Part shown: piece by piece, positions 29,534 to 50,790 of the stretch | Position numbering within the stretch: position 1 is the stretch's first letter | Layout: every line of letters begins with the position of its first letter | DNA from: Naegleria gruberi | Taxonomy: Eukaryota | DNA length: 64,000 nt | Reading direction: 5' to 3' (one strand) | Assembly: GCA_000004985.1 (NCBI GenBank) | Contig: GG738857.1 | Notes under the pieces: generated by a model | The model's input: only the letters and a program-made list of their open reading frames with translations | Databases searched by the model: none | What the model was told of the DNA's origin: nothing | Position numbers and translations under genes: made by a program

Positions 29534-31756
29534 ATGGTAAAGAAAAGAATCAGCAACAAGAATGAAGAGAAGGACGACCTTCTTGATGCGAACTCCGGAG
29601 AGGATGCAATAACTTCGGAATCATCAACTATAGCATCTGCTGTTAGTAGTACAATGCAACAACAACAAGTAGACAATAACAATATGCATCATCGTAAACT
29701 TGCATTGGAGGAGGATGAATCATGCAATACTAATTCTCATCATCATGCTAATGATTATTCCAAGCAAGTAGTAGAAGATTCAGAACAAGAAGGTACTTTG
29801 AATGCACAAGGTGTGAATGATGAGACTGATCATGCACAAGTAGCAATTTCTAATAATCAAATACAGAATGAAGTGACTAGTAATGAAGTGAATATTCCTG
29901 ATGGCATGACTAGAAAGCAAAGAATTATAAATCACTTGAAAATGGGAAAGAATGAGCTGATTCAAGTTTTAAAATTATGTTGGCCTGCTGTTGTGATGAA
30001 TGTTTGTTTTCAATTACTTGGTTTGGAAAGTTTGTCTTTTATTGGACATATTACTTTGGAGGATAATGAAATTCCAGGCATTACTAAGGATAAAGTTGGT
30101 GAATTGTATATGGCAGCAGCATCTTTGGGAAATTCATTCTTTTTCTGTATGTTTATTTAACATTTTCATTTTAATTTTCAACTATTTCTAAAATAGGTCT
30201 TGGATTTGTAATTGTTGGATTAATTCATGGTCAAGATACACTCGTTTCACAGGCGGTTGGTGCTAAAAATTTCATTAGAGCTGGTCACGTTTTAGCACGA
30301 TCCCTACTTACCATTCTATTGTGTTCAATTCCAATTTGTGTAGCATTGTGTTTTGCTAATTATTCTCTCTATTGGATGAATCAGGAAAAAGTTTTGGTTG
30401 ATCTAGTTGGAAATTATTTAAGAATTTTAACACCTGGTATGATTCCATTTGTGGTTTGTGAGGCATTGTCTCTGTATTTAATTGCTCAGAATATTTTAAT
30501 GCCAAATGTCATTATTTGGATTATTTCTGTAATTATTAATTTTGGATTGAATTGGTTATTAGTTTTTGGATTTGGATTTGATTCTCTTGGATTTGTAGGA
30601 GCTCCAGTAGCATTAACCATTACAAGATATATCATGTTGGTCATGTACATTGTATTTATTTATTTCAAAGGTTATATGAAAGAAACATGGAAAGGATTTA
30701 TTGATATTAAGGCTGTTTTTAAATGGGATGGATTTAAGGAATATTTGAAATTGGCTCTTCCAGGTTCTGTCATGTTAGCAGTAAGTAATTATTCTATTCT
30801 CAAAACAAATTTGAAACATATTGATATGAAGGCTGAGGTTTGGGGATTTGAGTTATCAACAATTACTTCCTCCTTCTTAGGACCAACTGCATTGGCATCC
30901 CATAGTATTGTTCTTAATATTTGTGCCTTGACATTTATGGTTCCTTTATCAATCGCTACTGCAACAGCCATCAAAATTGGACAATATATGGGTGGTAGAG
31001 AACCAATCAAAGCCAAATATACATCTTATGCATCAATGGTCTTCTCAGGATTATTCATGTTCTGTTCTGGAACTACATTGGCCATATGTAGAGAGTGGAT
31101 TCCACAAATTTACACACAAGATGCTGATATTATTTACAATGCTTCCATTATCTTCCCATTGTGTGCTCTCTTCCAATTCTTTGATGGTGTTCAAGCAATT
31201 GCTGGAGCTACCATTAGAGGTGTCGGCAAGCAAATTGTTGGTGCTGCCAGTACTCTCATTGCTTATTACGTAAGTTGTTCACACAATACTATTACTAATT
31301 CCTGCAAATTTAAAGATTATTGGTTTACCTATTGGAGCTGTATTAGCCTTTGTTGCTGGTTGGGGACTTGTTGGTATTTGGTCTGGATTAGCCATTGCTC
31401 TCTTCTCTGTATTTGTTGGCATGTTATTGTTCATTCGTTTTAGAATTAATTGGGAGAAGGAAGCAGAGGTTGCCTACAATAGAGCAACAACAAAAACATC
31501 AGAAGGATCTTCATCAGTAGAACTGGAAGCAACAGCAGCAGATGAATCAACAACAAGCAACAAGATGATGACAACACAAGTAGAATTGGAGGAAGGAAGA
31601 GTGGATGAAGAAAACAAGGCTGTTGTTATTGATGGTCAAGCAGAAGATTCTAGTGTATCGCCATCTTTGGAAGAAGATGAGGACTATTCAAGAGTGAATA
31701 GCAGAGTAAATTTACTGCAGAGCACGAGCACAGTTGCGCTGGAGGATGAAGAATAA
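29534..31756 (+). CDS. MATE-family multidrug/toxin efflux transporter
   Basis: Exons 29534..30146, 30197..30780, 30832..31269 and 31316..31756, with introns of 50, 51 and 46 nt. The protein has a long hydrophilic N-terminus, then multiple TM helices with MATE-like segments (GQDTLVSQAVGAKNF; AEVWGFELSTITSSFLG; FDGVQAIAGATIRGVGKQ). Removing the third intron restores the frame to the C-terminal ORF 31421..31756. Confidence 0.8.
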
Positions 31757-31967: not shown

Positions 31968-33826
31968 ATGGCTTCTCTTTCTGCTTCAGCCTCATCAAAA
32001 AGTTTAACGGGAAACAACAAGCAAAGTTCCGAAGATCATGTCTGGATAAATGGTTTGTATTGTATTGTATAAGAATATGAATTAATTGTTCTTCTTTAGC
32101 TTGGTATGATCCTCTTGCTTCCGTTACCTCTCTTTCACAATGTATGATGTTTTCTGATATTAATGGTGATGGAGACTACAAACTTGTGGTAGCTACTGCA
32201 AGTAAGAATCCCTTAGAAAGTAAAAAGACAAAACAAGCTCACAGATTGAGAGTCTATAAAGGTACTGGTATTATCAGCGAAAATGTTTTAATGGAGGAAC
32301 CTATTGCACTCGCTTCCTACTACACTGACTACTCATCACCTAAAAGACCTATGATTGTCGTCGCAAGTAGTAATCACATTTACTATTACAAAAACCTACA
32401 ACCATTCTACAAGTTTACTATGCCGGCAAAGACTACAGAAGAAAAGGAAGTGGAAATTTGGCAATATTTAAAGGAATCTAAATATGATGCCAAGACTGGT
32501 TACGCTGAATTAGCAAGACTTAGAGATCATAATATTACTCTTAGTACAAGGAGTTACGAACTTCTTTCTCTTACATCAAATGAAGATATTAAGGCGTTCA
32601 TTGATACCAGGAAAAATTTTGCCTTGGAGAGTCCAAATAATATTACAACTCTATCAATTCTTCCAAAAGACAGAGAAGGAGATGACGCAATTGGATGTCC
32701 AGTTGTCGGTACAGAGAGCGGAATAGTTTTTATCTTAACTCCCCAAGGATCACAAATCATGAAAGCTGTTCAATTGCCTTCAGCACCTGTAAAATTTTGT
32801 ATTGCTGGTAACTATGATAGTGATTATAGAATTACAGCAGCATGTAGAAATGGAAATGTATATACCATTAAAAATGGAGAAGTGAGTGGCGTGGTTATTG
32901 AGTTGGAATCTCATCCAGTTTCTATTGTAAAAATAGACAAAACTTTTGCTATTGGCCTTATGAACAATAGTATTCATTGCTACAATACAAGAGGAAAGAA
33001 ACAATACTCTATCTATTTACCATCTAATATTAAGGACATGGAAGTTCTTGAAATGAGAGGCCAACGTAGTGTGAAATGCATAATAGTAGCTATGGAGAAC
33101 AAGGAATTGAGAATTTATAATGGTAAAAATTTGGTAAATAGGATTGAATTATTTGAAAATATTGCCAGTCTCAGATATGGAATATACGGATCTGAGGTTA
33201 ATAGTTTAATCATTTCTTATAGAAATGGCGGTCTTGATTTTAAAGTTATCTCAAGAAAGGCAAGTTTGGAGAGCAAATCCAAAACTGGTCCACCACCAGA
33301 ACAGGAAGAGCCTTTGGATTTACCCTCCAAGACTTTCCTTTATTTGGAACAAACAAAGAGAGAAGTGGATTATTGCTCTGAAATGCATAATGTTTTCCAA
33401 AAAGATTTGGCAAGAATTAGACTTCACACTGCGAGGGCATATGTTAAAATTTTGACAGATGGCCAAGGTCCATTATCTTACACTTCCGGATCCTCTATTC
33501 GCTTGACGGCCCAAGTGCAAGGACTAGGTCCAAAGTTTAAGATTAATATTGAGGTTCAGAATACTGGCAAAAAGTCAATTTCCCAGTTATTCATTCTATT
33601 TGTTTTTAATGAAGATCTTTACTCGGTGGAGGGTGATGCAAGAAGATTGCTTCTTCCTCCTCTTCTTCCAGGACCAGTATACAGATTTAGTAAGGCAGTA
33701 ACCATGCTTGATCCTTTAGTTGCCCCAGAAACAATGAAATTATATGTTTGTAGTAAGGAGAGTCAAACACCTGTAATAACTGCTGTTGTAAATATGCCAC
33801 CAACAGAAATGATTGAATTAGTATAA
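31968..33826 (+). CDS. BBS1: Bardet-Biedl syndrome 1 protein homologue (BBSome subunit)
   Basis: Exons 31968..32052 and 32100..33826, with a 47-nt intron (GTTTGT..TAG, phase 1). Several blocks match my recollection of animal BBS1: W.NAWYDP; DINGDGDYKLVV; IYYYKNLQPFYKFTMP; AACRNGNVYTI; VQGLGPKFK. Confidence 0.85.
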
Positions 33827-34303: not shown

Positions 34304-34327
34304 TGTCAAAAGTGAATTGACGAGTCA
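34304..34327 (+). promoter_or_regulatory. Candidate promoter-proximal element: TGTCAAA plus the 16-mer GTGAATTGACGAGTCA
   Basis: The 16-mer at 34312..34327 is identical to 40505..40520. TGTCAAA at 34304..34310 recurs 25-80 nt upstream of four cluster ATGs. Confidence 0.4.
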
Positions 34328-34334
34328 ACAAAAA

Positions 34335-35500
34335 ATGCGTAAATCAACATCTGAAAAAACTCTTCCAGAAACAATCAACATAAAAAACCCATCCGAAGAT
34401 GAAAAATCCACTCTCCAACAACAAGATTGGTTTTGTGAATTAGTTTCAACCTACACAGAGCACAAGATAAACGCACTTGAGAAGGAAAATCAAAACCTAA
34501 TCCAAAAGTTGTTGGCTCTAACAGTTGATCAACGCTATATTAAATTTCTTGAATCTATTCCTTCATTGATGCAAAAACAACAAGAGCACAACAAACAAGG
34601 AAACTCTGACAATGAGTACAAAAAGTTAAACGAGAAGCTTGATGAAGTAATTGATGATTATGAGGACGTCAAGAGGAAATTAAAAAAAGCAGAAGAGAAT
34701 GCAAAAAAACCAAAGATGCTTTTGTTGAACAGCACTATTATAATGAAGAGAATATTAAAGAAATCACCAGGAAAGAAGAGAAGGTACGTGAAGAATTGGC
34801 TACCTTGAATGGAAAGTACCTTTATGAAAAGGAATCGTTCTTGAAACAAGTGTCCGAGTTAACAAAAGAAAGAGATCAACTAAATGATCAAATTTCAATT
34901 TACAAAACTCGAAATGATCCTGCCTTGCTGATGAATGACTTTTCTGATAACACAGTCAAAAAGATACATGATGAATATGTCACTTTGAAATCACACGATT
35001 TGAATTCTTTTGTGGGAAGAGTAGTTGAAGAACATTCATTAAGTGAAGATCAGGAATTTGATTTTGATTTAAAAATTGTTGCATTTGCATTCAAAACAGT
35101 CCGTAAACTCATTGAAGAAACCTATTCTGAAATGAATTTCGAACTAATTGGCAAGAAACTTACAAATGAAGAATCAGAAAGAAACCGCCTTATTGAAACC
35201 CTCGTCCAGACAATTGCAAAAATGGAAGAAATTGGAAAGAACAAGAAATTACAACAAGCTGCCAGAGAATTTATAACCAAACTCGTGAAATTCTATTGTA
35301 ACATGTTTCTCATTGATAAGAAGCTTGAATTGGTTTGGGCTTCAACTGGATCTCTCTACAATCCTGAATGGTACGATTCAAGAAATGCAACCAGTAACAT
35401 TGTAGTCACTAATGTTTTCAAACCTGCTCTCATGGACACATTCACCAAAACAGTCTACGAAAAAGGAATTGTTGAAACTACCCAAAAAAGGAAAAAATAA
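34335..35500 (+). CDS. Coiled-coil protein with conserved C-terminal domain (cluster family member 1); 1-nt frame break
   Basis: ATG 34335 (CAAAAAATG context). Frame A reads ...VKRKLKKAEENAKK, then frame B reads TKDAFVEQHYYNEENIKEITRKEEKVREEL... The switch is at the A7 run 34703..34709. The C-terminal domain begins 'KTRNDPALLMNDFSDNT' and ends '...LELVWASTGSLYNPEWYDSRNATSNIVVTNVFKPALMDTFTKTVYEKGIVET'. Confidence 0.65.
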
Positions 35501-35522
35501 CAATTATTACCTATATCAATAT

Positions 35523-38500
35523 TTATATTAAAACTCTCTTGTATGTAATTAAATATTCAGGATAGCATTGATTCCTATCATAGATAATATATTCATTGTA
35601 GGTGTGTTGTGATACCGACTTGGATCTTCCAATAACACTGTCATAAACTCTTCCATTTGAGTTTTCAATGACAGGTGGTCTTCTTTCATTTCTCATCTTT
35701 TCCCTTGTTTTGAAAACCATCTGACCTAACAGAACTCTACTGAGAAATATAAAACACTCACCATCCTTATTCGAAACACAATATTGATCACTCTTACTAC
35801 AGCAATCAGCAAAGTATATTCCAGCTCCAAACAAACCACTCAAAGCACTCAATCTTTCATCAAAGCCGTGTTCTGAAATGATTGACTTGACTACTTCTGT
35901 TGTTCCATGCCATAAATAAACTTCATTCACATTGGAATCTAATTCACACATTTCGTCAACAAAATCATTTCTAATTGGTATATCCATTACCTTCTTTTTA
36001 TCCTTATAGGAAATTAGGTGTTTCTTCTTTGATAGATACATTTCATAAAGTGATAAATTCTCAATTCTTTCCACTTTTAGAACTTGTAACTTGTTATATG
36101 GAAATGAATCTTTTTCATGGTTTCGTTTCTTTCCTAATGTAATTGTTACACATGTCTTATCCAATAAATCTTGAATATCCTCTTTTAATTCAGCGGTAAC
36201 ATCTATAATTGACATGTTATTTTGATTTGATTTCCAATAGGAAGGCTTTTGTTTCGTTTCCTTTCTTCTTGTCCCACGAAAGAATTCATGTCTTAATAAC
36301 TCAGATGCAGATAAAGTACAAATTTCTTCACGAATATTAATTGAGTCCATTAGCGTTTTCAAAAGAGATGAATATTCATCGAGTCGTTCCATTGACATGA
36401 TGTCAATTACCATTTTCACGAAACAAAACATTTCTTTCTGGAATGGTAATTTGTTTCCCTTTTCCTCTATTTTCACAACATTATCAAATCCATCCAATAT
36501 TAATTTAACTTGTTCATCTTCAATAATTTTCACATACACATTCGCAGCTCTAATATTTCCATGAACAAATGAATAGGTATGAAAATGATGAATGGCTGAA
36601 AGAATCTGAAACCAAATATCTTCCCATCCTGATCTAATGGATGAAAAATCTTTCAATGTTCCAATTGAGTAATATGGCATAACAATACAAAGTTTATCTT
36701 GACAAAGATAAAATCCAATTAATTCTGCAATATTTGAATGTTTGATTTTCTCTAGAATTTCAACTTGTTCAATTACCATTTCAATTTTATCCAATGAATA
36801 TTGTTTAACACGATAGAAAATATTCGAATTCTTATCAACTGCCTCAATAAGCATATAATTCAGAAATGCAGTTTCACTAATTGTAGTCAATTCCAAAGTG
36901 CTTACATCTTGAATTCCTATAATTTCTGATAGTAAATCATAGAATCCTGATCGATAGAGTGTAATTGATTTGTTTCGAATATCATTTCTGTTAATTTGAA
37001 GAGTTTCGAGTTCAGTTTCTTGTTCCATAATTTTTAGACAGGGCGCAGTTGATGTTGAGTTGTTTGTTTCCCACAATTTTTTCTCAATTTCAATTGATCT
37101 TTTGCGTGCTTCAATGTTCTCACTCATTAATTTGTAATTAATTCCATATTTAGAAATATCAAATTTAGAAATTATTGTTAAAGTTAATTGCATATTTTTA
37201 AATTCATTACAGATGGTAGTAATATTATTGATAAAATCAAGGCAATTATTTTTCATATCATCAATAAAGTAGCAATATCCTTTCAATTTCTTTTTCAATA
37301 AATGATACAATTCCAAATTTGGATTTTCTTTCAATAAGGAAAATAATTTTGAAATGGAATCTCCAATATCATTTGTATCATTGCTTATTTCTGAAAATTC
37401 AAGTGTTGAAATATTACTTGAAAAATTTGAAAGAAAATTTGCAACTCCACTCAATTGCTTATTACATGTATTAATCCATTTCTCCAAATTAGTCGAATAT
37501 TCTTCAAATGTTAATTCCAATTCTTCATAATTCGATATTTCATTACATGGAATTTCTTCTCCACCATTCAAAAATTCATTAATTTCTTTAGAAATTTCAC
37601 TCAAACTCTTTACAAATTCAATAAGAAAATTTCCATAATCACTTTTCTTAATTTGATTATTCATTGATTCATGGATTTGAAATTTGCTTCGAAATTCAAT
37701 TAAATCTTGAGGATTTTGTGATGAATAAATCGATTTTGAATTAATTTGGATAGGGCTGAGAAGATTCTTAATATCTGTAAACTTTTTCATGTCATATTCG
37801 TTAATTATGATATTTCTAATAAGTCTATCAGTGGTAAATCTTATAGTTTCCAATTGATTTTTCCTATTTTTGTATTCGAAACCTAATTGGGAAAGCTCTG
37901 TAAATATTGATGCAAAATGAATGAATTTAATTTCTATTGGAGATGTGCTAGTAGATGCTTGACTCACTTCTACATTAATTTCTTTTGTTTCCACATTAGT
38001 CTTATTTCTTTTTTCAGATTTCATTTCCTTTTGAATCGTTTTTATGGATTTCCCGCCACATTTCAATGCTATTGATATTTTGATATTAGGATGTTCTAAT
38101 AATAATTTTCACAATTTCAATTTTATCTCTTTCGCAAGCAACTTGCAAAGGTGTTTTAACCTTCCAAAATTGGTAAAATAAAAACTTGCAAATTAATACT
38201 TACCATCTTTAATCTTAAAACTCAATTAATTAAATATCAAACTTACATTCTGAATAATTCAATAAATGTATACTCATCATTAACAAGTTACTTACACCCT
38301 TATTAACATCCAATTCATTTGATTCCAATAATAATTTCACAATTTCAAGATGACCATCATAACATGCAATAAACAAACAAGTTTGTTCTGATTCTACACC
38401 ACAAAATGTCTTGAATAACAAGCTAATAAGTATTCATTTTGCTTCAAATCATACTTACTTCATTGACATTGACAAGTGACAGTAAATATTTGACAATCTC

Positions 38501-38782
38501 AACATTTCCACTTCTACAAGCATGATACAATGGAACCTAAACACATTTAACAATATATGATGATATAAAACCTACTCCGATTCTTGGATTTACCTTCTTT
38601 TCTTCTAACAAGTATTTTGTAATTCTTGTTGAATTATTAGAAATTGATTCTTCTAATAGAGTTTTGTTCGAAACAAGAGTTTTTGAAAAATCGGACAAGG
38701 ATTCAGCTAATGAAATGAATTGCTCTAAATTATCACTTGAAATTGACGAGATTACTTTCTTCTCAAGTTTCTTTTTCAACAT
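35523..38782 (-). CDS. Ankyrin-repeat / pseudokinase-like / PARP-catalytic-domain protein; 1-nt frame break
   Basis: Exons 38576..38782, 38459..38536, 38296..38409 and 35523..38160, with introns of 39, 49 and 135 nt. Ankyrin units: VPLYHACRSGNVEIVKYLL; TCLFIACYDGHLEIVKLLLESNELDVNKG; KTPLQVACERDKIEIVK|LLLEHPNI, where | marks the frame break at the T4 run 38106..38109. The kinase-like region lacks the catalytic Asp (HGNIRAAN where HRDxxxxN is expected, DGF where DFG is expected). The C-terminal PARP signature is H (LWHGT), Y (GAGIYFA), E (YNEYIIYD). Confidence 0.75.
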
Positions 38783-38800
38783 TTTTTTTAAACTAAACTT

Positions 38801-40432
38801 TTAATTCTTTTTTGACACTCTGACAATTACTTTTGCCTTCTCATAAATACTTCTCGATTGCAACTGCATTAGGGATGGAAAGACTGTGCACTGAATCTTT
38901 GGAATGGTTGTGTTATTTCTTGCATCTTGTTCGTATGGATTAAAATTGTCCTTTGCTTTATACCAAACGAATTCCAACTTTTTTGAATTGGTAAACATTT
39001 TCATGTAGAGTTCAATTGCCTTATCAAGTAATTCTGAGGTTAGATTACTAACTTCCCGATCTCTACAAATATGCTCAGGATTCTCAACTTTGAATTTGTT
39101 GAAAACGTGTTCAATGGAGGTGAAAATCTCATTGTGGCAGCTTTTGAGTAGTTTTTTCTTATCTGAATCTTCCAATGGCTTGCATCCATAACCTAATTTC
39201 TTGTCTTTCAATCTGTGTTGTAATGATTTGCCCTTATTGTCGTCTTGAGCTGGTGAAAAGAGGTATTTGGCTAATTCCATTTCAATTTCACATTCAAAAT
39301 CTTGTGCTACATCATCTCCATTAAGATTTTCACTCATTTCTTCACAAAGAGAACCCAATGAATTCTTAATTTCAAAATAAGCATCCTTAATTGACTTGGT
39401 GGTATTGTCGGAGAAATTGTTCATCTCAAGAGCTGGATCATGTTCTGCTTTGACAATTCTAAAATTATCTTCAAGTTGAGCAATCTTTGATTCTAAACCA
39501 TTTTTCAGTTCGATTAGTGCTTCTTTTTCTTTCTCAAATCTTGATTGGTTTTCACTTGCTTCGGTTCTCATTCTGTTTTTATCCTTTTCCAGATTTGAGA
39601 TTTTACTTTCAAGAGATTGAAGGTTTGCCTGGAGTTCAAGTGTGTCATTTTTAAGATCCTTATTATCACTTCTCAAATCTTCAAGCTTTTTGGTTGTATT
39701 TTTGTGGCTGTCTTGTTCAGTCTTCAACTTTTGTTTAGTTTCATCATGTTCACTTCTCAATTTGTTGAAATTCTTTTCTAAAGTGTCCTTTTCCTTCTTG
39801 AGATCTGTAAATTCTTTTTTCTTTGTATTCAATTCAGTAATCTTTTGATCTTTTTCACTAACCAATTGCTTTTCACGGTTCTGCAAATCATCATTTTCTT
39901 TCTTTAATTTCTTCTCATTATCTCTTGCTTCATTGCTTTCTTTGGTTAATTTTTTAATTCTTTCATCTTGATTTTGGGATTTTTCTAATGAGATTGATTT
40001 AAGGAATTCAACAAGTTTCTTATCAACTTGTACAGTGTCTAATATGTCTCTTAATCTGTCAACTTCCTTGGTATGCTTTTCTGACTCTTCCTGGATGTGG
40101 TTAACTTTGTTTTTTTCCTTATCAAGATTACTTTGGAGAATAGAAACTTGTTTTCTTTGACTCTCTAAATCTTGTTTAACCTTGTCAAGTTCGTGTTGGA
40201 GGATTTGTGCTACATTCTTTTCCTGGTCCCAATTACTTTGCAGATTGGAGGTTGTTAGCTTTTCTTTATTAAAGGCCTCTTCAATTGACTTGAGTTGAGT
40301 TTGAAGTTGTGAAATTCTTTTTTGATAATGGGAGGGATCTACTTCTTGTGTTGGGGGTGGAACATCACTTGTTGGTTGTTGTTGGGGTTTGATGGTGGAT
40401 GATGGTTTATTTGAATTGGATTCGTTTGTCAT
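38801..40432 (-). CDS. Coiled-coil protein with conserved C-terminal domain (cluster family member 2)
   Basis: I place the start at ATG 40432 (AAAAAAAATG context), not the track's non-ATG start at 40528. A long heptad-rich K/E/Q/L region is followed by 'KAEHDPALEMNNFSDNT...LEFVWYKAKDNFNPYEQDARNNTTIPKIQCTVFPSLMQLQSRSIYEKAKVIV'. Confidence 0.75.
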   Translation of the reverse strand: MTNESNSNKPSSTIKPQQQPTSDVPPPTQEVDPSHYQKRISQLQTQLKSIEEAFNKEKLTTSNLQSNWDQEKNVAQILQHELDKVKQDLESQRKQVSILQSNLDKEKNKVNHIQEESEKHTKEVDRLRDILDTVQVDKKLVEFLKSISLEKSQNQDERIKKLTKESNEARDNEKKLKKENDDLQNREKQLVSEKDQKITELNTKKKEFTDLKKEKDTLEKNFNKLRSEHDETKQKLKTEQDSHKNTTKKLEDLRSDNKDLKNDTLELQANLQSLESKISNLEKDKNRMRTEASENQSRFEKEKEALIELKNGLESKIAQLEDNFRIVKAEHDPALEMNNFSDNTTKSIKDAYFEIKNSLGSLCEEMSENLNGDDVAQDFECEIEMELAKYLFSPAQDDNKGKSLQHRLKDKKLGYGCKPLEDSDKKKLLKSCHNEIFTSIEHVFNKFKVENPEHICRDREVSNLTSELLDKAIELYMKMFTNSKKLEFVWYKAKDNFNPYEQDARNNTTIPKIQCTVFPSLMQLQSRSIYEKAKVIVRVSKKN

Positions 40433-40454
40433 TTTTTTTAAAGACGTACGAAAA

Positions 40455-40536
40455 TTTGACGAGTTGTAATGTAATTTTGAAACCTGCATTCCGTGTTCCG
40501 TTCTGTGAATTGACGAGTCATCATTCACTTGTCAAA
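40455..40536. promoter_or_regulatory. Divergent promoter with repeated TTGACGAGT / TGTCAAA motifs
   Basis: The 134-nt region between ATG 40432 (-) and ATG 40567 (+) contains TTGACGAGT at 40456..40464, GTGAATTGACGAGTCA at 40505..40520 and TGTCAAA at 40530..40536. Confidence 0.4.
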
Positions 40537-40566
40537 TGTTTAACTATCAAACAAATAATCAAAAAA

Positions 40567-41778
40567 ATGGGATTCTTTGGGTTTTTCAGTGATGACAATA
40601 AAGAAGAAATAAAGAAGGAGTTGAAGGCGGCAAAGGAACAAATTGAATACCAAAAGAAAGAGGTAGAAAGCCAGCGAAACAAAATTATAACATTAGAAAC
40701 AAATAACACCAATTTGCAAACTAGAAACACAACTTTACTCCAAGAATTTAAAATTTTAAACCCGAAACTTGAAAAATTAACACTTGAAAAACAAAATTGC
40801 GAATATATTTCCTCTCAATATCAAGCAAAAGCACAAGAATTGAACAAGAAATTACAAGAACTCGACAAGCAGTACAATTCCACTGTTCAAAATCTCAACA
40901 CTGAATTACAATCTTGTAAATTTCAATTCAATCAAGCAATCACTGAGTGGAAGCAAGAGAAGAACAAATTTGAATTAGAATTGAAAAGTGTAAAACAATC
41001 AAGAGATCAACAAATTTCTTATTCCACTCAATTACATTCAGCATTGACTGAAGAAAGAGAGAATTTCATAAACTTGTCCCAAACCAAAGAACAAGAAATT
41101 GAAAAGTTGAAAGCTGACATTATTTTAATCAAAGCTCAAAATGATCCAGCACTTGTTGTCAATGATTTCTCAGATGAAAGTCCTAAACAAATTAGAGATT
41201 TGTATCTTCAATCAAAATCAAGTATTGACACTTTGACAACAACCTTGGAAGACAATTTGACAGAAGATGAACAAGAACAATTGGAAATTATTATAGCCAA
41301 GACACTCTTTGAGAAATTAGAAGAGACTGTTATGAAATTTGTGTGTGAAACAAAACAAGTTGACAGCAGTGATAGAAAGCTCATTGGTGAATTATTGAAA
41401 TCAGATATTGAAATGAGAAAGCTTGTTATTTATCATACTTCAGTTGGATTAATGAATCAAATTAAGGAACAATTTGCCAGTTTTAGTAATTTTATTGAAA
41501 ATTGTAAAGATGAAGAAAGAATTCAAATTCAAAATGAAATTGACACAATGTCAACAAGTTCAATTTCAATGCTAGCAATGATCTTGAGAAATGAGCAAAA
41601 TATTGGTTTCGTTTGGTATAAACCAAAATCAGATTTCAATACTTTAGAACAAAGATCAAGAAATGCTGATAAGAAAATTGTAATTGATACTTGCATTTAT
41701 CCTTGTTTAATGTTGAAGGGATCAAGAAGTGTTTTTGAACAAGCAGTTGTTACAACAAAATTAACAAAACACAAATAA
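40567..41778 (+). CDS. Coiled-coil protein with conserved C-terminal domain (cluster family member 3)
   Basis: ATG 40567 (AAAAAAATG context). Coiled-coil N-terminal half, then 'KAQNDPALVVNDFSDES...IGFVWYKPKSDFNTLEQRSRNADKKIVIDTCIYPCLMLKGSRSVFEQAVVTT'. Confidence 0.75.
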   Translation: MGFFGFFSDDNKEEIKKELKAAKEQIEYQKKEVESQRNKIITLETNNTNLQTRNTTLLQEFKILNPKLEKLTLEKQNCEYISSQYQAKAQELNKKLQELDKQYNSTVQNLNTELQSCKFQFNQAITEWKQEKNKFELELKSVKQSRDQQISYSTQLHSALTEERENFINLSQTKEQEIEKLKADIILIKAQNDPALVVNDFSDESPKQIRDLYLQSKSSIDTLTTTLEDNLTEDEQEQLEIIIAKTLFEKLEETVMKFVCETKQVDSSDRKLIGELLKSDIEMRKLVIYHTSVGLMNQIKEQFASFSNFIENCKDEERIQIQNEIDTMSTSSISMLAMILRNEQNIGFVWYKPKSDFNTLEQRSRNADKKIVIDTCIYPCLMLKGSRSVFEQAVVTTKLTKHK

Positions 41779-41994: not shown

Positions 41995-43871
41995 ATGAGC
42001 ACCAGCACCCTCATCAAACCACAAGCAGGTAAAAACTTTGTCGTTTGCATTGACTTTGGATCTTCAGGTTCTGGCAGTTCAATTCTCTTCGTAAAGGATG
42101 AAGATAAAATTTTCACTCTCAAAACTTATCCAGACTCCCCTAACGTAGTTTACAATAAGAATATGTCATGTATTTTATATGAAGATGGTAAGAGACATAG
42201 TATTGGTTATACTGCTAGAAAGACAATGTTCTTTGAAAATGATGACGAAGATTCAGATGAAGATTCCGGTGAAGATTCGGATAGAGATTCAGATAGTGAA
42301 AGTGAAGAATCTCATGGATCAACTTCAACTGCTCCATCAAAAAAATCAGCAACTCCACTAAAAGATAGAAAATTTATCAGAGATTTAAAAATTCAATTCA
42401 TGGAAGCAACAAAAGATGAGAAGGAAATTTCAATTCCAGAAATAGTAATTTCCAATGATGGAACAACCAAATCTTTACTTGATGTGATGGCAGATTACTT
42501 ATCCATGTTATTCACAGATTTTATCATGAAGAGTTTAAAGAATAACGATAGCTCTGTTAAGAAAACTGATGTTCGTTGGTGCATTACAGTTCCCGCCAAC
42601 TATTCAGAACATCAAAAATCCCTAATGAGGAAAGTGGCATGTAAGGCAAAGATTATAGATAAGGAAAATTGTGATGAGAGTGATTTGATTATCATTTCTG
42701 AACCAGATGCTGCTACCATGTTCTGTATGAAACATAAGGCTAAATCTAAACCACTTACAAATGGTGAAACTTTTATGGTAGTTGATGCTGGTGGTGGTAC
42801 TGTAGATGGTAAGTTTGAGAAATTCTTGATTTAACATTTAAATTCTGTAACAGTCAGTTGTCATATGCTTGAAAATGGTAAATTGAAAGAGTTGGCAGTT
42901 CAAAAGGCAGAGCTATGTGGTTCTACATTTATTGATAGAGAATTTATTAAGATTTTAGAAGAAAATTGTGATAATTTCAAAGAATTTACAGAGAAAAATC
43001 CAGAAACTCTTGTCAAGATATTATCAATTTGGGAAGATGTTAAGAGAGGTACTTTGACAGTTGACAAGAAATTGACATTTGACACATCTCCAATGTTTAA
43101 AAAAGCAAAACCTAATAGTTCAATTTACAAATCAAGATCTACCAAGATTGCATTAACAGATGAACAAATGAAAAGAATATTTGACAGTCAAGTGTCAAAA
43201 GCACTCAAATTGATTGATGAAGTTTATAGAGATTATGAAGAAGATTATCCAAGTAGAAAGATGGATCACTTATTTATTGTTGGTGGTTTAGGAGATAATG
43301 GTTATTTCCAAAATCGTATTAAGGAAAGATTTGAAAAGAAATTTAAGGAAATTTTAATTCCACTTTTCTGTTCGACAGCTGTCATGGAAGGAGGTGCATT
43401 ACTTGCTAAGGATCCATCATTCGTTCAAGAAAATCAAAGTTATCATATGGTGTTGGTGTCATGGAAGAATTTGAAGAAGGGCATCATGCTGAAAGCAAGT
43501 ACAAGGTCATTAATGGTAAACATATGGCAGTTGACGTGTTGGATGTTTTTGTTGAACAACGTGAAGAAGTTGAAATTGATAGAGAAATTGTTAGAGAATA
43601 TGAATGTTTACCAGGTGCTACTCAAATTGATGTTGTTCTCTATTCATCTATTAAGAGAAGAGAAGCAATTCCTTATATTGATTCACCACTAGTTTCTAAA
43701 GAGGAAACAATTACAATTCCTTTTAGAGATTCATCAAAGGAGGCAGATAGAAGAGTTTTTATTAAATTCTTCTTTGGTAAATCAGAATTAATGATTACTG
43801 TTGAAAATGCACAAGGTGAAGTTAAGGAAATTAAGAGAGATTTTGAAGCAAACTCACTTGCCCTAAAATAA
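41995..43871 (+). CDS. HSPA12-type Hsp70-like ATPase (paralogue 1); 1-nt frame break
   Basis: Exons 41995..42808 and 42854..43871, with a 45-nt intron (phase 1). The junction GGGTVD|VSCHMLE matches GGGTVDLTCHKFE in the paralogue. Motifs: VVCIDFGSSGSG; WCITVPANYSEHQK; IISEPDAATMFC; FMVVDAGGGTVD; LFIVGGLGDN. The frame changes at the A4 run 43430..43433, after which the second frame gives ..SKLSYGVGV, aligning with RMRMTYGVKA in the paralogue. Confidence 0.75.
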
Positions 43872-44116
43872 ATAGTTGAAATTCCATTCACAAAAATCTT
43901 AATATTTATTAGTATGAGCGAAATATAACCTCAATATCATTATTACAATCTGATCTTTTTCGTTTATCAAAACTGTAGAAAGCTTTTTTTGAACTGTAGT
44001 CACTCTCGAATCGTGATTCATTGTAAAACTTGTCAAACTTACCGATCAGAATTCCGTATGACGTACGATTTCTCATTTCTCATCAGTTTATTCTGTTCCA
44101 TTAACACACAAAAAAA

Positions 44117-46556
44117 ATGTCATCATCAACTGTTCCTGTTCGTTCAGGTTCCCTCAACAAGAAGAAAGTTGTCATTTCCATTGATTTTGGTACATCAAGA
44201 ACTGGTTTCTGTTATTCACTCACCAATGATGTGAAAAAGACTCGAGTTAAGAATACCTCATGGAAAGATGCACCAAGTGGAGTTTCATTCCCAAAGACTC
44301 TCACTCAATTACTTTATGAAAAGAGTGATACAAGAAAACCTGTTGCTTGGGGTTACACTTCACTTGACATGTTGTCAAGAGAATTTGAAGATGAGAGTGA
44401 ATCTGATGAAGATGAAGAAGGTGGTGAAGAGATTCCAGCACAAAATAGCAAGTATTATCATTTCAAGACATTCAAAATGGGATTATTCAATAATCCATCT
44501 GGTATGGTGAAGGATACAACTGGTGTTTTTGAAAAGAATGTTGGTGAATTGATAGTTGACTATTTGAAATTATTATTCCATGATCAGATTAAGCCAACTG
44601 TTGAGAAATCATTGGGATCTAAATTGAATCTTGATGAAGTTACTTGGTGTTTAACAGTTCCAGCCATTTGGAAAGATGAACAAAAATCAGATATGAGATT
44701 AGCTGCTTACACTGCTGGTTTAACAAAGACACCTGAAGCATCTTCTGATGATTTTAAGATTATTCTTGAACCAGAAGGAGCTGCTGCTTATTGTATGGAA
44801 TATCAAGCTTCTAAAGGTAAACCATTGAGAGAGGGCGAATCATTCCTTGTTTGTGATCTTGGTGGTGGTACAGTTGACTTGACATGTCATAAATTTGAAA
44901 AGGCAAGATTGAGAGAATTAGCTGAAGGATCTGGTGATGCATGTGGTTCTACATATTTAGATGATGCTTTTATTATTTATTTGGAAGAATGTTTTGGTAA
45001 GAAATTTGTTGAAACCTTAAGGAAAAAGTATGGCCAAACTTATTTGGACATTTTAAAGATTTGGGAAAGAACAAAAGTTACAACAACAGATTTAACAAAA
45101 GATATTAATGTTGATATGCCTGGTCAATTAAGTAGTTTTTTAGAAAGTGCCAATGTTAAAAGTGATAAATTCAGAGCTAAAAGAGGTCAACTCAAAATTA
45201 CAAGTGAAGCTTTACAAACAATTTATCAAGATTCATTAGAAAAAACAAGAAATCTTGTTGAAAAGCAATTAGAAACAATCCAATCAGAGACTGGTAAAAT
45301 GGTTGATTATATTTTCATAGTTGGTGGTTTTGGTGCTTCCAAAGTAGTTCAAAACTTTCTAATTGACAATTTCTCTTCACAAGTTAAGGGAATTGTAATT
45401 CCAAATGAACCTGCTGAAGCTGTTGTTGATGGTGCTGCATTATTAGGTATTGATGATTCATTAATTTCAACACGTAGAATGAGAATGACTTATGGAGTTA
45501 AAGCTCAAAAAGGAAGTGAAGAAATATTCGATACTTTTGTAATTGCTAATCAAGAACTTGAAGTTGATCAAGGAATTTCAAGAGAATACAAAGTTCAAAG
45601 AGCTAATCAACAAGCTATGAAAATAATCATCTACAGCACTAAATTGAAATCAATTACAAAAGTTGACGAAACTAAATGTCATAAGATTGGTGAAATTCAA
45701 GTACATATGACAGATATGACAGGTGGCATGGATAGAATAGTGAAAGTTACAATGTATTTTGGTAGATCAGAAACTAGAGTTACTGCCATTGAAAAGAATA
45801 CTGGAATTGAGTATAGTGCATTAATTAAGTATGATGGTGAATTATTTTCACATGGTGAAAGTATTGCTGACACTCCACCAGTTCAACCTCACCATTTGTA
45901 AGTATAGAATGTTATATTGAAGTTTACAATTTCTAACTGTTAAAAGAATTTTTGCAAATGATGTTTCAGGATCAATGTGGGCAAGAGATGCTTTACCAAC
46001 AATGAGTTTACTTAAAGTAAGTATTCTTCCATGATGTTTTTTACTAATATTCAATTAGACCTCTCATAATAACAGAGTAGGAGCACTTTATGAAGCATGT
46101 TATGCCTTTTTAGAAACAAGAAAAGAAACTTCAGATATTTCATCGTGTATTCTTCATAATCATGATTCAATCATTATTTATGATAAAAAACCTGCAACTC
46201 CATCACTTGTTTCTGATTACATGATGAAATATAATGCCGACGGTGGCAACAACTTTTTAAAAGTATTCGAAACTGTCGAACAAGTTCTCAAATCGAGTAA
46301 TAACGAGGAATTCAAACCAATAGTTTTCTTTATGACAGATGGTGCTTGGCACGACGACGGAGCACCTGCCTACTTGGAAGGCTTAATGTTAAGATATCCA
46401 GATTTAACAGTTCATGTCATTAATTTGGGTAGTTCAATTAATTTTGAATTGATGAATAGAATTGCAAAGATTGGTAGAGGAACCATTTCAACATCTGGAA
46501 TGAGCGCTGTAGAATTGAAGAGTACCTATCTCAGCTTGCTTCCTTACTTGGATTAA
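44117..46556 (+). CDS. HSPA12-type Hsp70-like ATPase fused to a C-terminal von Willebrand factor A (vWA) domain
   Basis: Exons 44117..45897, 45947..46016 and 46059..46556, with introns of 49 and 42 nt (phases 2 and 0). ATPase motifs: VISIDFGTSRTGF; WCLTVPAIWKDEQKSDMRLAAYTAGL; ILEPEGAAAYC; FLVCDLGGGTVDLTCH; IFIVGGFGAS. The vWA MIDAS motif DVSGSM appears only after splicing, and a later FFMTDGAWHDDG follows. Confidence 0.8.
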
Positions 46557-49413: not shown

Positions 49414-50790
49414 TTAGTAACTTTCTATTACACACGCTTTTAAAGATGAAATAATTATTTCAAATTGTTGTGAACAATTAATATTATGATTTCTTTCTTT
49501 GCAAAATTCAATTAATGGAATAAAATTAGCAAGAAAATGAGTTGTAAAAAGAGATCTCTCACCAATTTCAGTTTTAAATTCATTCTCCAAATTGCTAGAA
49601 TCACAGCAATCGTCACAAATATCAAATGAATCATAACCATCCACTGTTGATTGATAAAATCCTGAACATGTTTGATCACATATTTTACATGTCTTTGTTG
49701 ATTCAATTTTAAAAATATCAAAATTATTTCCATACTTTTGTTTCATGTTTGGAATCAAGTTACTTATTTCTGATGGTAAATGATTTAATAATTCAAAATA
49801 TTGTAAAAATTCAACAATACTTCTTCCTACACATGTCAATTTGTGATCATTTAGGTATGATTTGATTAACCATTTTAGTGATTCTTCCATATTTGGCAAT
49901 GTACCAACACCAACACAATACATGTAAGCTACTCCATATTGTGCAAAGCAATAGTTTTGTTTGGCTGATTTTAACAACCATTCAAGTCCAAGTTTTAAAT
50001 CTTTTTCATAATATTCACCAGAATAGTAATAAATACCAATCCAATATTGAGCTAAACAATTTCCATTTCCAGCAGATTTGAAATACCAATCTGTTGCTTT
50101 TTTGAACTCTTCATTAAGTCTATAATGTCTAGCGAGTTTATGTTGATATTTACTATTTCCTAATTCAGCTCCTTTTAAAAGCCATTTTTCTTTCATTTCT
50201 GATGAATTTTTGTTTAATTTTTTCATTTTCTTTATGGCAGGAAAATAATTTAATTCTGCTGATTTTTCCAAAAATGTAATATCCTTATTATATAAATAAA
50301 TTAAATAGTTAAAAATTGGATTATTGGTTTGTTTGGCACATTTTTTATAAACCTTGTTCAATTTAATTCTACTTTTAATATTTGGTAAATCAATTTCAAA
50401 TTTTTTTAATTGTTTAATAATTGAATTTGGAGAAATAATTAATTTTTCCAATACTTTTAAACTAAAATCACCACTTAAATATAATTTTTCCAATTTTGTA
50501 AATAATTTACAATTAAAAATAGTTTTTAACATTTCAGTATTTACATTATTAAAACTACATTTACAAATTTGTAATACTATTTGACTATTACAAAATTTTT
50601 CCATATCCGAAAGTGAAACAAAACGTGTAGAAACCATTTTCAATTTTAAATAGTAATAAATAGACATATCAGACCAATATTTACAAACAAGTCTATGAAC
50701 CAACCATTCATTTGGTAGATAACTTGAAATGTGTGCTAAAATCTCAGGTGGAATTTCATCATTGAAATTTCGTTTTGATAAATTAGACAT
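49414..50790 (-). CDS. F-box / Sel1-like repeat protein with C-terminal Cys-rich (ZZ-like) zinc-finger motif
   Basis: Single 458-aa ORF. F-box IPPEILAHISSYLPNEWLVHRLVCKYWSDM; Sel1-type repeats (GNSKYQHKLARHYRL..; GNCLAQYWIGIYYYSG..; NYCFAQYGVAYMYCVGVG); C-terminal CKICDQTCSG...FDICDDCCDS. Confidence 0.75.
   Translation of the reverse strand: MSNLSKRNFNDEIPPEILAHISSYLPNEWLVHRLVCKYWSDMSIYYYLKLKMVSTRFVSLSDMEKFCNSQIVLQICKCSFNNVNTEMLKTIFNCKLFTKLEKLYLSGDFSLKVLEKLIISPNSIIKQLKKFEIDLPNIKSRIKLNKVYKKCAKQTNNPIFNYLIYLYNKDITFLEKSAELNYFPAIKKMKKLNKNSSEMKEKWLLKGAELGNSKYQHKLARHYRLNEEFKKATDWYFKSAGNGNCLAQYWIGIYYYSGEYYEKDLKLGLEWLLKSAKQNYCFAQYGVAYMYCVGVGTLPNMEESLKWLIKSYLNDHKLTCVGRSIVEFLQYFELLNHLPSEISNLIPNMKQKYGNNFDIFKIESTKTCKICDQTCSGFYQSTVDGYDSFDICDDCCDSSNLENEFKTEIGERSLFTTHFLANFIPLIEFCKERNHNINCSQQFEIIISSLKACVIESY

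What the first reader, a model, noticed from the sequence alone, without database searches (positions are those of the whole stretch)
34335..41778. Three-member coiled-coil family with a conserved C-terminal domain (possibly MIEAP-like)
All three proteins switch from heptad-rich sequence to a shared domain. It opens with K(T/A)(R/E/Q)(N/H)DPAL..N.FSD(N/E) and closes with (L/I)(E/G)(L/F)VW....(S/D/N)..N..E...RN.......(V/I)(F/Y)(K)P.LM.....(T/S)(V/I)(Y/F)E(K/Q)..V. From memory, the start and end resemble the MIEAP (mitochondria-eating protein / SPATA18 C-terminal) domain pattern (RPS.L...FS.L ... P.L.....V.KG.V). I could not verify this, so treat it as a low-confidence hypothesis.
Basis: inference. 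Interest (0 to 1): 0.55.

Follow-up and report, generated by a model that had tools for sequence, protein, structure and literature searches.

The report
MIEAP-like coiled-coil proteins beside Hsp70-like genes
Three neighbouring Naegleria genes encode coiled-coil proteins whose shared tail domain is a distant relative of the animal "mitochondria-eating protein" (MIEAP) domain, and their position next to unusual Hsp70-like genes, as in two bacterial groups, suggests they are dedicated helper proteins of those chaperone-like ATPases.

Summary
The window is Naegleria gruberi. Genes g1 (34335-35500 +), g2 (38801-40432 -) and g3 (40567-41778 +) encode an N-terminal coiled coil plus a shared ~200-aa C-terminal domain. 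The domains are 27-30% identical (BLASTP E 1e-15 to 4e-28).

The MIEAP guess is partly supported:
- Pfam MIEAP is the top hit for g1, but below the curated cut-off (22.4 vs 27 bits).
- Profile-profile comparison gives P 2.7e-5, far above column-shuffled controls.
- g2 and g3 do not hit the Pfam model on their own.

The context is new. The genes sit beside two HSPA12-type Hsp70-like ATPase genes, and this arrangement is conserved in N. fowleri. The only non-Naegleria homologues are in Thiomargarita. They are encoded 6 nt downstream of a homologous Hsp70-like gene. Streptomyces plasmids carry an analogous pair.

An AlphaFold model (pLDDT 86) has GrpE, the Hsp70 nucleotide-exchange factor, as its best Foldseek matches, although none is significant. 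The bacterial partner proteins give weak GrpE profile signals (P ~1e-3).

Best reading: these are dedicated, possibly GrpE-like, partners of HSPA12-type ATPases. This is inferred, not shown.

The parts
34335..35500 (+). g1: coiled-coil plus MIEAP-like-domain gene. The reading frame changes between 34647 and 34810. The product is 359 aa if 34647-34732 is an intron, or 388 aa if one A is added in the A7 run at 34703-34709.
   Evidence: No protein covering this domain is present in the 1.84-billion-protein library.
34892..35497 (+). g1 C-terminal domain (202 aa). The AlphaFold2 model has five helices followed by a six-stranded beta subdomain.
38801..40432 (-). g2: 543-aa protein (NAEGRDRAFT_79006) with a ~320-aa coiled-coil N-terminus. 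The C-terminal domain is at 38804-39463.
40567..41778 (+). g3: 403-aa protein that starts MGFFGFF. The C-terminal domain is at 41119-41775. The public model (NAEGRDRAFT_65183) covers only the last 148 aa.
40433..40566 (.). 134-bp head-to-head intergenic region between g2 and g3. It carries two copies of TTGACGAGT. One copy lies inside the 16-mer GTGAATTGACGAGTCA, which is also found 8 nt upstream of the g1 ATG (34312-34327).
41995..43871 (+). HSP70A: HSPA12-type Hsp70-like gene directly downstream of g3. It has a 45-nt GTAAGT..AACAG intron at 42809-42853 and a 1-nt frame break at about 43419.
44117..45901 (+). HSP70B: HSPA12-type Hsp70-like gene (594 aa). It is 32% identical over its full length to the Thiomargarita Hsp70-like protein that precedes the bacterial homologue of g1-g3.
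   Evidence: Pfam HSP70 54 bits. BLASTP E 2e-76. NCBIfam matches cover the DnaK nucleotide-binding domain only.
35523..38066 (-). Kinase-like plus PARP catalytic domain gene between g1 and g2. It is also a neighbour of the cluster in N. fowleri. Whether it belongs to the module is unknown.

Best explanation
g1, g2 and g3 are fast-evolving paralogues. Each encodes a coiled-coil stalk, presumably for dimerisation, followed by a ~200-aa alpha/beta domain. That domain belongs to the same remote superfamily as the animal MIEAP (SPATA18 C-terminal) domain.

They most likely act as dedicated partner proteins of the HSPA12-type Hsp70-like ATPases encoded next to them (HSP70A, HSP70B). In this reading the C-terminal domain docks on the ATPase domain in the way a GrpE-type nucleotide-exchange factor or adaptor does. 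The variable coiled-coil part would provide dimerisation, localisation or client contacts.

What is shown:
- The three genes are paralogous.
- They have homologues in N. fowleri and Thiomargarita.
- Their domain has statistically supported remote similarity to MIEAP.
- The gene adjacency to HSPA12-like genes is conserved in Naegleria and Thiomargarita, with an analogous pair in Streptomyces.

What is inferred:
- Physical or functional partnership with the Hsp70-like ATPase.
- GrpE-like fold and mechanism.
For: Family and distribution:
- An exhaustive HMM search of 1.84e9 representative proteins found only 8 members. These are N. gruberi, four N. fowleri genes and one metagenomic protein, P0008.
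- P0009 is 72% identical to P0008 and comes from a Thiomargarita MAG.
- hhalign of the Naegleria-only profile against the Thiomargarita pair gives Prob 95.9%, P 5.3e-9.

Linkage to Hsp70-like genes:
- In Thiomargarita the gene starts 6 nt after an Hsp70-like gene, and a WD40 gene follows.
- The independent contig of P0008 shows the same junction.
- That Hsp70-like protein is 32% identical over its full length to window HSP70B (E 2e-76) and also matches HSP70A.
- N. fowleri keeps the order HSP70B-HSP70A-P0006-P0004-P0005-kinase/PARP.
- Eight Streptomyces linear plasmids carry full-length homologues of the same Hsp70-like protein (E 1e-61 to 1e-68). In all four loci inspected, a 236-244-aa coiled-coil protein follows 7-10 nt downstream.
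- Canonical grpE occupies this same position after dnaK.

GrpE-likeness:
- The top four Foldseek hits of the g1 domain model in the PDB are GrpE. Eight of the top 37 hits are GrpE.
- hhalign against a 14-sequence GrpE profile gives P 1.4e-3 for the Streptomyces partner (29.4 vs 11.4+-2.0 in shuffles, 0/100). For the beta-domain alone it gives P 1.1e-3 (0/60).
- Thiomargarita against GrpE gives P 3.8e-3. Thiomargarita against the Streptomyces partner gives P 1.7e-3.

MIEAP link.
Against: - No interaction has been shown.
- Gene order in eukaryotes is weak evidence on its own. The fourth N. fowleri copy has no Hsp70-like neighbour.
- Direct comparison of the Naegleria family with GrpE is not significant over the full length (P 0.015-0.11) and only marginal for the beta-domain (P 0.025, 1/100 shuffles).
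- The Naegleria-only profile against the Streptomyces partner is not significant (P 0.4).
- The domain has five helices, whereas GrpE has three.
- The vertebrate MIEAP model gives no GrpE hit. Its beta region was modelled poorly.
- Neither MIEAP nor the Naegleria domains hit Pfam GrpE.
- Published work assigns Mieap to condensate formation and cardiolipin metabolism, not to Hsp70 (PMC10845071).
Confidence: 0.5

Rival explanations
1. These are Mieap-type scaffold proteins. Like animal Mieap, they self-assemble through the coiled coils and use the C-terminal domain to bind lipid or organelle surfaces. On this reading the Hsp70-like neighbours are unrelated, or merely remodel these assemblies as clients.
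For: Remote MIEAP homology. The architecture is the same: N-terminal coiled coils plus a structured C-terminal domain, as described for Mieap in PMC10845071. Some paralogues have MG- N-termini with Ser at position 6 (N. fowleri P0004 and P0006), which is compatible with membrane anchoring.
Against: This reading does not explain the tight bacterial operons with Hsp70-like genes. The RS-rich, positively charged disordered regions that define Mieap's condensate behaviour are absent (sequences). No mitochondrial presequence is evident.
Confidence: 0.2
2. These genes are part of a conflict or stress-response module acquired together with the Hsp70-like genes by transfer between bacteria and eukaryotes. 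On this reading the coiled-coil protein is a sensor or adaptor that recruits the ATPase, and perhaps the neighbouring kinase-PARP protein. It would not be a nucleotide-exchange factor.
For: The bacterial pairs lie among toxin-antitoxin, Abi, HNH, zeta-toxin and RHS genes. The family is extremely patchy: Naegleria, Thiomargarita and a Streptomyces analogue. It also evolves fast. Positional orthologues in N. fowleri are 25-30% identical, against 60% and 39% for the two Hsp70-like genes and 46% for the PARP domain. A kinase-PARP gene is a conserved neighbour. Conflict systems that combine HSP70 and GrpE have been described in actinobacteria (PMC7159879).
Against: No PADLOC model matches the Hsp70-like or partner proteins. 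The GC content of the Thiomargarita operon equals that of its surroundings, so there is no sign of recent transfer. No effector domain is fused to the proteins.
Confidence: 0.2
3. These are lineage-specific structural coiled-coil proteins of Naegleria. The MIEAP and GrpE resemblances would be chance or convergence, and the Hsp70 adjacency would be a coincidence.
For: The hit is below the Pfam gathering threshold. g2 and g3 have no Pfam hit on their own. The structural matches are non-significant.
Against: Three different directed tests for MIEAP exceed their controls by a wide margin. The library-wide significant homologue in Thiomargarita (E 1.6e-5 among 1.84e9 proteins) sits in an operon with the same rare Hsp70-like family that neighbours the Naegleria genes.
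Confidence: 0.1

Closest known systems
MIEAP domain (Pfam PF16026; C-terminal domain of Mieap/SPATA18)
   Same: Both have N-terminal coiled coils followed by a ~195-200-aa structured domain. The C-terminal motifs are collinear: LE.VW....FNP against LDIAF..DGE.F, and P.LM.....V.EKA.V.T against WPALME...V..KGEAVT. The opening motif is similar: AL..NDFSD against RLVSRFSD. The predicted helix order is similar.
   Different: The score is below the Pfam gathering threshold, and only the last ~75-100 residues align with confidence. There are no RS-rich disordered regions. The family occurs in a heterolobosean amoeba and a giant sulfur bacterium, whereas Mieap orthologues were reported in metazoans and not in fungi or prokaryotes (PMC10845071). 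The genes are linked to Hsp70-like genes.
GrpE / Mge1 / GRPEL1 (Hsp70 nucleotide-exchange factor, Pfam PF01025)
   Same: Both have a long N-terminal helix or coiled coil that forms a dimer, then a helical bundle, then a small six-stranded beta domain at the C-terminus. The gene lies directly next to an Hsp70-family gene. The beta-domain motifs are collinear: G..FDP..H.A against D.FNP.EQ.S, and GY.L..R.LRPA.V.V against P.LM...R.VFEKA.V.T. GrpE gives the best Foldseek matches.
   Different: There is no Pfam GrpE hit, and direct profile similarity is not significant. The domain has two extra helices. The partner ATPase is an HSPA12-type protein that lacks a canonical substrate-binding domain. Exchange activity has not been tested.
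dnaK-grpE(-dnaJ) operons, and the HSP70+GrpE-containing GTPase-centric conflict systems of actinobacteria (Kaur et al. 2020, PMC7159879)
   Same: An Hsp70-family gene is followed within about 10 nt by a small coiled-coil cofactor gene. The bacterial examples lie in variable, toxin-antitoxin-rich regions.
   Different: No GTPase, tubulin or DnaJ-fused component was seen next to the Thiomargarita or Streptomyces pairs. The Hsp70 is of the HSPA12 type.
HSPA12A/B (atypical animal Hsp70s), for the neighbouring genes
   Same: Both have an Hsp70 nucleotide-binding domain plus a non-canonical C-terminal region. A human HSPA12A sequence that I recalled from memory aligns over its full length with the Thiomargarita protein (32% identity, E 2e-90).
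   Different: The recalled sequence could not be verified against a database, so this assignment is provisional. No cofactor is known for HSPA12 proteins (my knowledge; nothing relevant came up).

Membership tests
MIEAP (PF16026) | Whole-protein score at or above Pfam's gathering threshold (27 bits) | tested here: not met
   g1 scores 22.4 bits (E 1.3e-4). g2, g3, the N. fowleri paralogues and the Thiomargarita proteins give no hit at E<=1.
MIEAP (PF16026) | Statistically supported profile-level similarity to bona fide MIEAP domains | tested here: met
   hhalign gives P 2.7e-5 with score 39.8, against shuffles of 12.9+-2.0. The Naegleria-only profile gives P 1.2e-3. The family HMM against 120 MIEAP proteins gives a best score of 19.2 bits, P 4.5e-8.
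MIEAP (PF16026) | Similarity over the whole ~195-residue domain | tested here: inconclusive
   The confident alignment covers profile positions ~100-195 only. The N-terminal half aligns collinearly only at a low alignment threshold. Helix order is similar in the two AF2 models, but the MIEAP beta region was modelled with low confidence.
MIEAP (PF16026) | Coiled-coil N-terminal half preceding the domain | tested here: met
   Heptad periodicity and coiled-coil family hits. The Mieap architecture is taken from PMC10845071.
MIEAP (PF16026) | Arg/Ser-rich positively charged disordered regions flanking the domain (PMC10845071) | tested here: not met
   No RS-repeat segments occur in g1-g3. There are only short Lys-rich C-terminal tails (sequences).
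MIEAP (PF16026) | Mitochondrial condensate formation or cardiolipin binding | not testable with these tools
   Requires experiment.
GrpE (PF01025) | Sequence-profile match to GrpE | tested here: inconclusive
   No Pfam GrpE hit. hhalign against a 14-sequence GrpE profile gives P 0.015-0.11 for the Naegleria+Thiomargarita family, 0.025 for its beta-domain alone, 3.8e-3 for Thiomargarita alone and 1.4e-3 for the Streptomyces partner.
GrpE (PF01025) | GrpE fold: long helix, helical bundle and C-terminal beta domain | tested here: inconclusive
GrpE (PF01025) | Genomic association with an Hsp70-family ATPase | tested here: met
   Thiomargarita and Streptomyces operons and the Naegleria clusters.
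GrpE (PF01025) | Nucleotide-exchange activity on its Hsp70 | not testable with these tools
   Requires biochemistry.
Hsp70 family, HSPA12-like subgroup (neighbouring genes) | Pfam HSP70 above threshold, with similarity to DnaK restricted to the nucleotide-binding domain | tested here: met
   HSP70B scores 54 bits against a cut-off of 20.6. NCBIfam DnaK matches cover model positions ~3-370 only.

The most novel reading that the evidence does not exclude
The MIEAP domain, the Naegleria/Thiomargarita domain and the Streptomyces partner proteins are all divergent GrpE-like domains. Together with HSPA12-type Hsp70s they form an ancient two-gene module, a non-canonical Hsp70 plus its own exchange factor or adaptor, that is shared by bacteria and eukaryotes. 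By extension, animal Mieap/SPATA18 would be a GrpE-like cofactor of HSPA12A/B or another Hsp70. That would recast its role in mitochondrial quality control.
Probability: 0.3. Interest if true: 0.85.

Novelty: new variant of a known kind. Interest (0 to 1): 0.62.

Why it matters
- Mieap/SPATA18 is a p53-induced tumour-suppressor-linked protein. The biochemical activity of its conserved C-terminal domain is unknown, and its family was thought to be essentially metazoan.
- A divergent branch in a heterolobosean amoeba and in giant sulfur bacteria extends the superfamily far outside animals.
- The repeated adjacency to HSPA12-type Hsp70 genes gives a concrete, testable mechanism. HSPA12-type proteins are themselves orphan chaperone-like ATPases with no known co-chaperone.
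- If the GrpE-like reading holds, it would assign a function to two poorly understood protein families at once.
- It would also define a new Hsp70/exchange-factor pair that bacteria carry in variable, toxin-antitoxin-rich regions.

Tried and rejected
- A word-indexed homology search with full-length g2 was swamped by coiled-coil words and returned only itself.
- The same search with the 8-sequence domain alignment returned only P0009.
- Sequence searches against the PDB with 3- and 8-sequence profiles found nothing meaningful.
- PADLOC gave no defence-system model for the Hsp70-like or partner proteins. The g2 hits to JetC and LmuB are coiled-coil noise.
- NCBIfam gave nothing for the partner proteins.
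- Metagenome and genome pattern scans recovered only the Thiomargarita contigs already found, and one alignment was too divergent to scan.
- The phage collection holds no homologue of the Hsp70-like protein.
- The AlphaFold-database libraries were unavailable, so no direct structural match to SPATA18 could be made.
- Foldseek of my vertebrate MIEAP model gave only non-significant helical hits, because its C-terminal third was poorly modelled.
- A 3-sequence GrpE profile was too weak. I enlarged it to 14 sequences from plasmid records.
The paralogues and the N. fowleri orthologues are only 25-30% identical in protein, so synonymous sites are saturated.
- The 318-aa N. fowleri gene in the position corresponding to g1 is unrelated.
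- The shared 5' motif was not found in N. fowleri promoters.

Full report
**Source and gene models**

The window is Naegleria gruberi. The ORF at 38801-40528 (-) is 100% identical to NAEGRDRAFT_79006, and the last 148 aa of the ORF ending at 41778 are NAEGRDRAFT_65183.

Three genes carry the feature:
- g1 is 34335-35500 (+). It is broken over two frames. It is restored either by an 86-nt GTAATT...AACAG intron at 34647-34732 (359 aa) or by adding one A in the A7 run at 34703-34709 (388 aa).
- g2 is 38801-40432 (-) and encodes 543 aa.
- g3 is 40567-41778 (+) and encodes 403 aa. It lies head-to-head with g2 across 134 bp.
- The C-terminal domain of g1 is absent from the 1.84-billion-protein library, so it is effectively unannotated.

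**Observation**

- Domain-only BLASTP between the three copies gives E 1e-15 to 4e-28 at 27-30% identity over 216-237 aa. This excludes compositional similarity.
- A family HMM finds exactly three copies in the window.
- Heptad periodicity is very strong in g2 and modest in g3 and the middle of g1.
- Pfam hits in the N-terminal halves are all to coiled-coil families, below threshold.

**Distribution**

An exhaustive HMM search of 1.84e9 representative proteins found only eight members.
- The members are the N. gruberi genes, four N. fowleri genes (FDP41_002251/2/3, which are adjacent, plus FDP41_013066) and one metagenomic protein, P0008.
- A relative of P0008, P0009 (72% identical), lies on contigs of a Thiomargarita MAG from a sulfidic cave.
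- The Naegleria-only profile against the two Thiomargarita proteins gives hhalign probability 95.9%, P 5.3e-9. This is genuine homology.
- Positional orthologues between the two Naegleria species are only 25-30% identical. The flanking genes are 60% (HSP70B), 39% (HSP70A) and 46% (PARP domain) identical. The family therefore evolves fast.

**MIEAP**

- Only g1 hits PF16026 (E 1.3e-4, 22.4 bits, profile positions 100-195). The gathering score is 27.
- To run a profile-profile test I needed real MIEAP sequences. A human SPATA18 sequence that I recalled from memory scored 256 bits on PF16026. I used it only as bait to retrieve 140 database MIEAP proteins.
- A 20-sequence MIEAP alignment against the 8-sequence family alignment gives P 2.7e-5 to 6.4e-5 with hhalign. 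The score is 39.8, against 12.9+-2.0 (maximum 19.5) for 60 column shuffles and 13.3 for the reversed profile.
- With a permissive threshold the alignment extends collinearly to the N-terminal motif.
- The family HMM scores MIEAP proteins up to 19.2 bits (P 4.5e-8).
- AlphaFold2 models show the same order of five helices. The family model is confident (pLDDT 86, pTM 0.81). The MIEAP model is confident only in its helical part.
- I conclude that this is a remote relative of the MIEAP domain and not a member by Pfam's criterion. It also lacks the RS-rich disordered regions described for Mieap (PMC10845071).

**Context**

- Directly downstream of g3 lie two Hsp70-like genes.
- HSP70A (41995-43871) has a 45-nt canonical intron. 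It also has a 1-nt frame break at about 43419 that interrupts an otherwise continuous match to its homologues.
- HSP70B (44117-45901) scores 54 bits on Pfam HSP70.
- Both resemble DnaK only in the nucleotide-binding domain.
- N. fowleri keeps the cluster: HSP70B-HSP70A-P0006-P0004-P0005-kinase/PARP.
- In Thiomargarita, P0009 starts 6 nt after an Hsp70-like gene. That gene's product is 32% identical over its full length to HSP70B (E 2e-76).
- The separate contig of P0008 has the same junction.
- The same Hsp70-like family occurs on eight Streptomyces linear plasmids and nowhere else in the plasmid or phage collections.
- In all four Streptomyces loci inspected, the gene is followed 7-10 nt downstream by a 236-244-aa protein with an N-terminal coiled coil and a C-terminal motif ...PLDP..QE.W....PAYLV.GRVYGRQLVYT.
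- Canonical grpE occupies this position after dnaK in actinobacteria.
- A recalled human HSPA12A sequence aligns over its full length with the Thiomargarita protein (E 2e-90). This suggests that the ATPases are HSPA12-type, but the recalled sequence is unverified.

**GrpE lead**

Evidence pointing to GrpE:
- Foldseek ranks GrpE first to fourth and gives eight GrpE chains in the top 37. All have E 0.04 or worse and TM 0.26-0.38.
- I built a 14-sequence GrpE profile from PDB and plasmid records.
- The Streptomyces partner against GrpE gives P 1.4e-3 (29.4 vs 11.4+-2.0 in shuffles, 0/100). For the beta-domain alone it gives P 1.1e-3 (0/60).
- Thiomargarita against GrpE gives P 3.8e-3. Thiomargarita against the Streptomyces partner gives P 1.7e-3.
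- All of these alignments place the same motifs in register.

Evidence that weakens it:
- The Naegleria+Thiomargarita family against GrpE gives P 0.015-0.11 over the full length and 0.025 for the beta-domain (1/100 shuffles).
- Naegleria alone against the Streptomyces partner or against GrpE is not significant.
- MIEAP against GrpE is not significant, and the MIEAP model does not hit GrpE.

The chain GrpE - Streptomyces partner - Thiomargarita - Naegleria - MIEAP therefore has two robust links: Naegleria-Thiomargarita and family-MIEAP. The other links are weak but consistent. They are reinforced by an orthogonal fact, the position next to an Hsp70-family gene.

**Interpretation**

- The best-supported reading (about 0.5) is that these proteins are dedicated partners of HSPA12-type ATPases and may work like GrpE.
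- The alternatives are Mieap-like scaffolds, adaptors in a conflict-type module, and unrelated structural proteins. They are weighed in the rival list.
- The bacterial pairs sit among toxin-antitoxin, Abi, HNH, zeta-toxin and RHS genes. No PADLOC model matches them.
- The literature held here contains no paper linking Mieap with GrpE or HSPA12.

**Caveats**

- The hhalign P-values come from small alignments without secondary-structure scoring.
- Column shuffles do not control for shared coiled-coil periodicity. For that reason I repeated the key tests on the beta-domain alone.
- The structural matches are below accepted significance.
- Two bait sequences came from memory and were used only as described.

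Noticed in passing
window 34640-34810: The g1 reading frame changes here. Either an 86-nt intron (34647-34732, GTAATT...AACAG) or a missing A in the A7 run (34703-34709) restores a single ORF. The candidate intron also reads as plausible coiled coil, so a frameshift or pseudogene cannot be excluded.
   Followed up: partly
window 43410-43425 (HSP70A): A 1-nt frame break at about 43419 lies inside a motif that is continuous in the homologues (DPS-IRSRKSKLSYGVGV; Thiomargarita has DPSIRSRVSRLTYGAG). There is no room for an intron. This is either a sequencing error or a recent pseudogenisation. With g1, it is the second possible frame break in the same cluster.
   Followed up: partly
window 34312-34327 and 40505-40520; also 40456-40464: An exact 16-mer, GTGAATTGACGAGTCA, lies 8 nt upstream of the g1 ATG and again in the g2/g3 intergenic region. 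The 9-mer TTGACGAGT occurs exactly three times in 64 kb, all in the 5' regions of these three genes (0 of 100 shuffles reach 3). It may be a shared regulatory element. It is not seen upstream of the Hsp70-like genes or in the N. fowleri promoters.
   Followed up: partly
window, whole: One-mismatch variants of TTGACGAGT, mostly TTGACAAGT and TTGAAGAGT, occur 28 times against 10.6+-3.4 expected. One lies at 44028-44036, upstream of HSP70B. This may be a common Naegleria promoter word.
   Followed up: no
window 35523-38066 (-), perhaps with 38537-38782: An 847-aa ORF carries a truncated protein-kinase-like domain and a PARP catalytic domain (89.7 bits). The N. fowleri counterpart is 1353 aa with an additional weak SNase hit, so upstream exons are probably missing here. 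The 81-aa ORF at 38537-38782 may be one of them. The gene is a conserved neighbour of the cluster.
   Followed up: partly
window 40567-41778; proteins P0002, P0007, P0011: Public gene models are poor. g3 is annotated as only its last 148 aa. One N. fowleri model (P0007) fuses a truncated copy of the domain to leucine-rich repeats.
   Followed up: partly
g3 N-terminus (40567-); N. fowleri P0004 and P0006: Several paralogues start with Met-Gly. P0004 (MGLSFS) and P0006 (MGNGVS) fit the N-myristoylation pattern with Ser at position 6. g3 (MGFFGFF) does not.
   Followed up: no
g1 ~34523-34580 and g2 N-terminal half: g1 (VDQRYIKFLESIPS) and g2 (VDKKLVEFLKSISL) share a short non-heptad motif inside their N-terminal halves. 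The similarity between them therefore extends beyond the C-terminal domain.
   Followed up: no
L021-L024 (Streptomyces linear plasmids): The pair of Hsp70-like gene and coiled-coil partner is flanked by Phd/RelE, zeta toxin, HNH endonuclease, Abi and AAA ATPase genes. A small conserved divergent ORF of about 85-90 aa lies upstream.
   Followed up: no
L001 7171-8052 (Thiomargarita): A 293-aa WD40 protein with higher GC (0.50 against 0.40) follows the pair after 58 nt. No homologue of it is in the Naegleria window.
   Followed up: partly
window 32144-33826: An intact BBS1 (BBSome subunit 1) gene scores 256 bits on Pfam. It is also the neighbour on this side in N. fowleri.
   Followed up: no
window 49414-50790 (-) and 30319-31443 (+): An F-box plus Sel1-repeat protein and a MatE transporter fragment. 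Both are ordinary neighbours.
   Followed up: no
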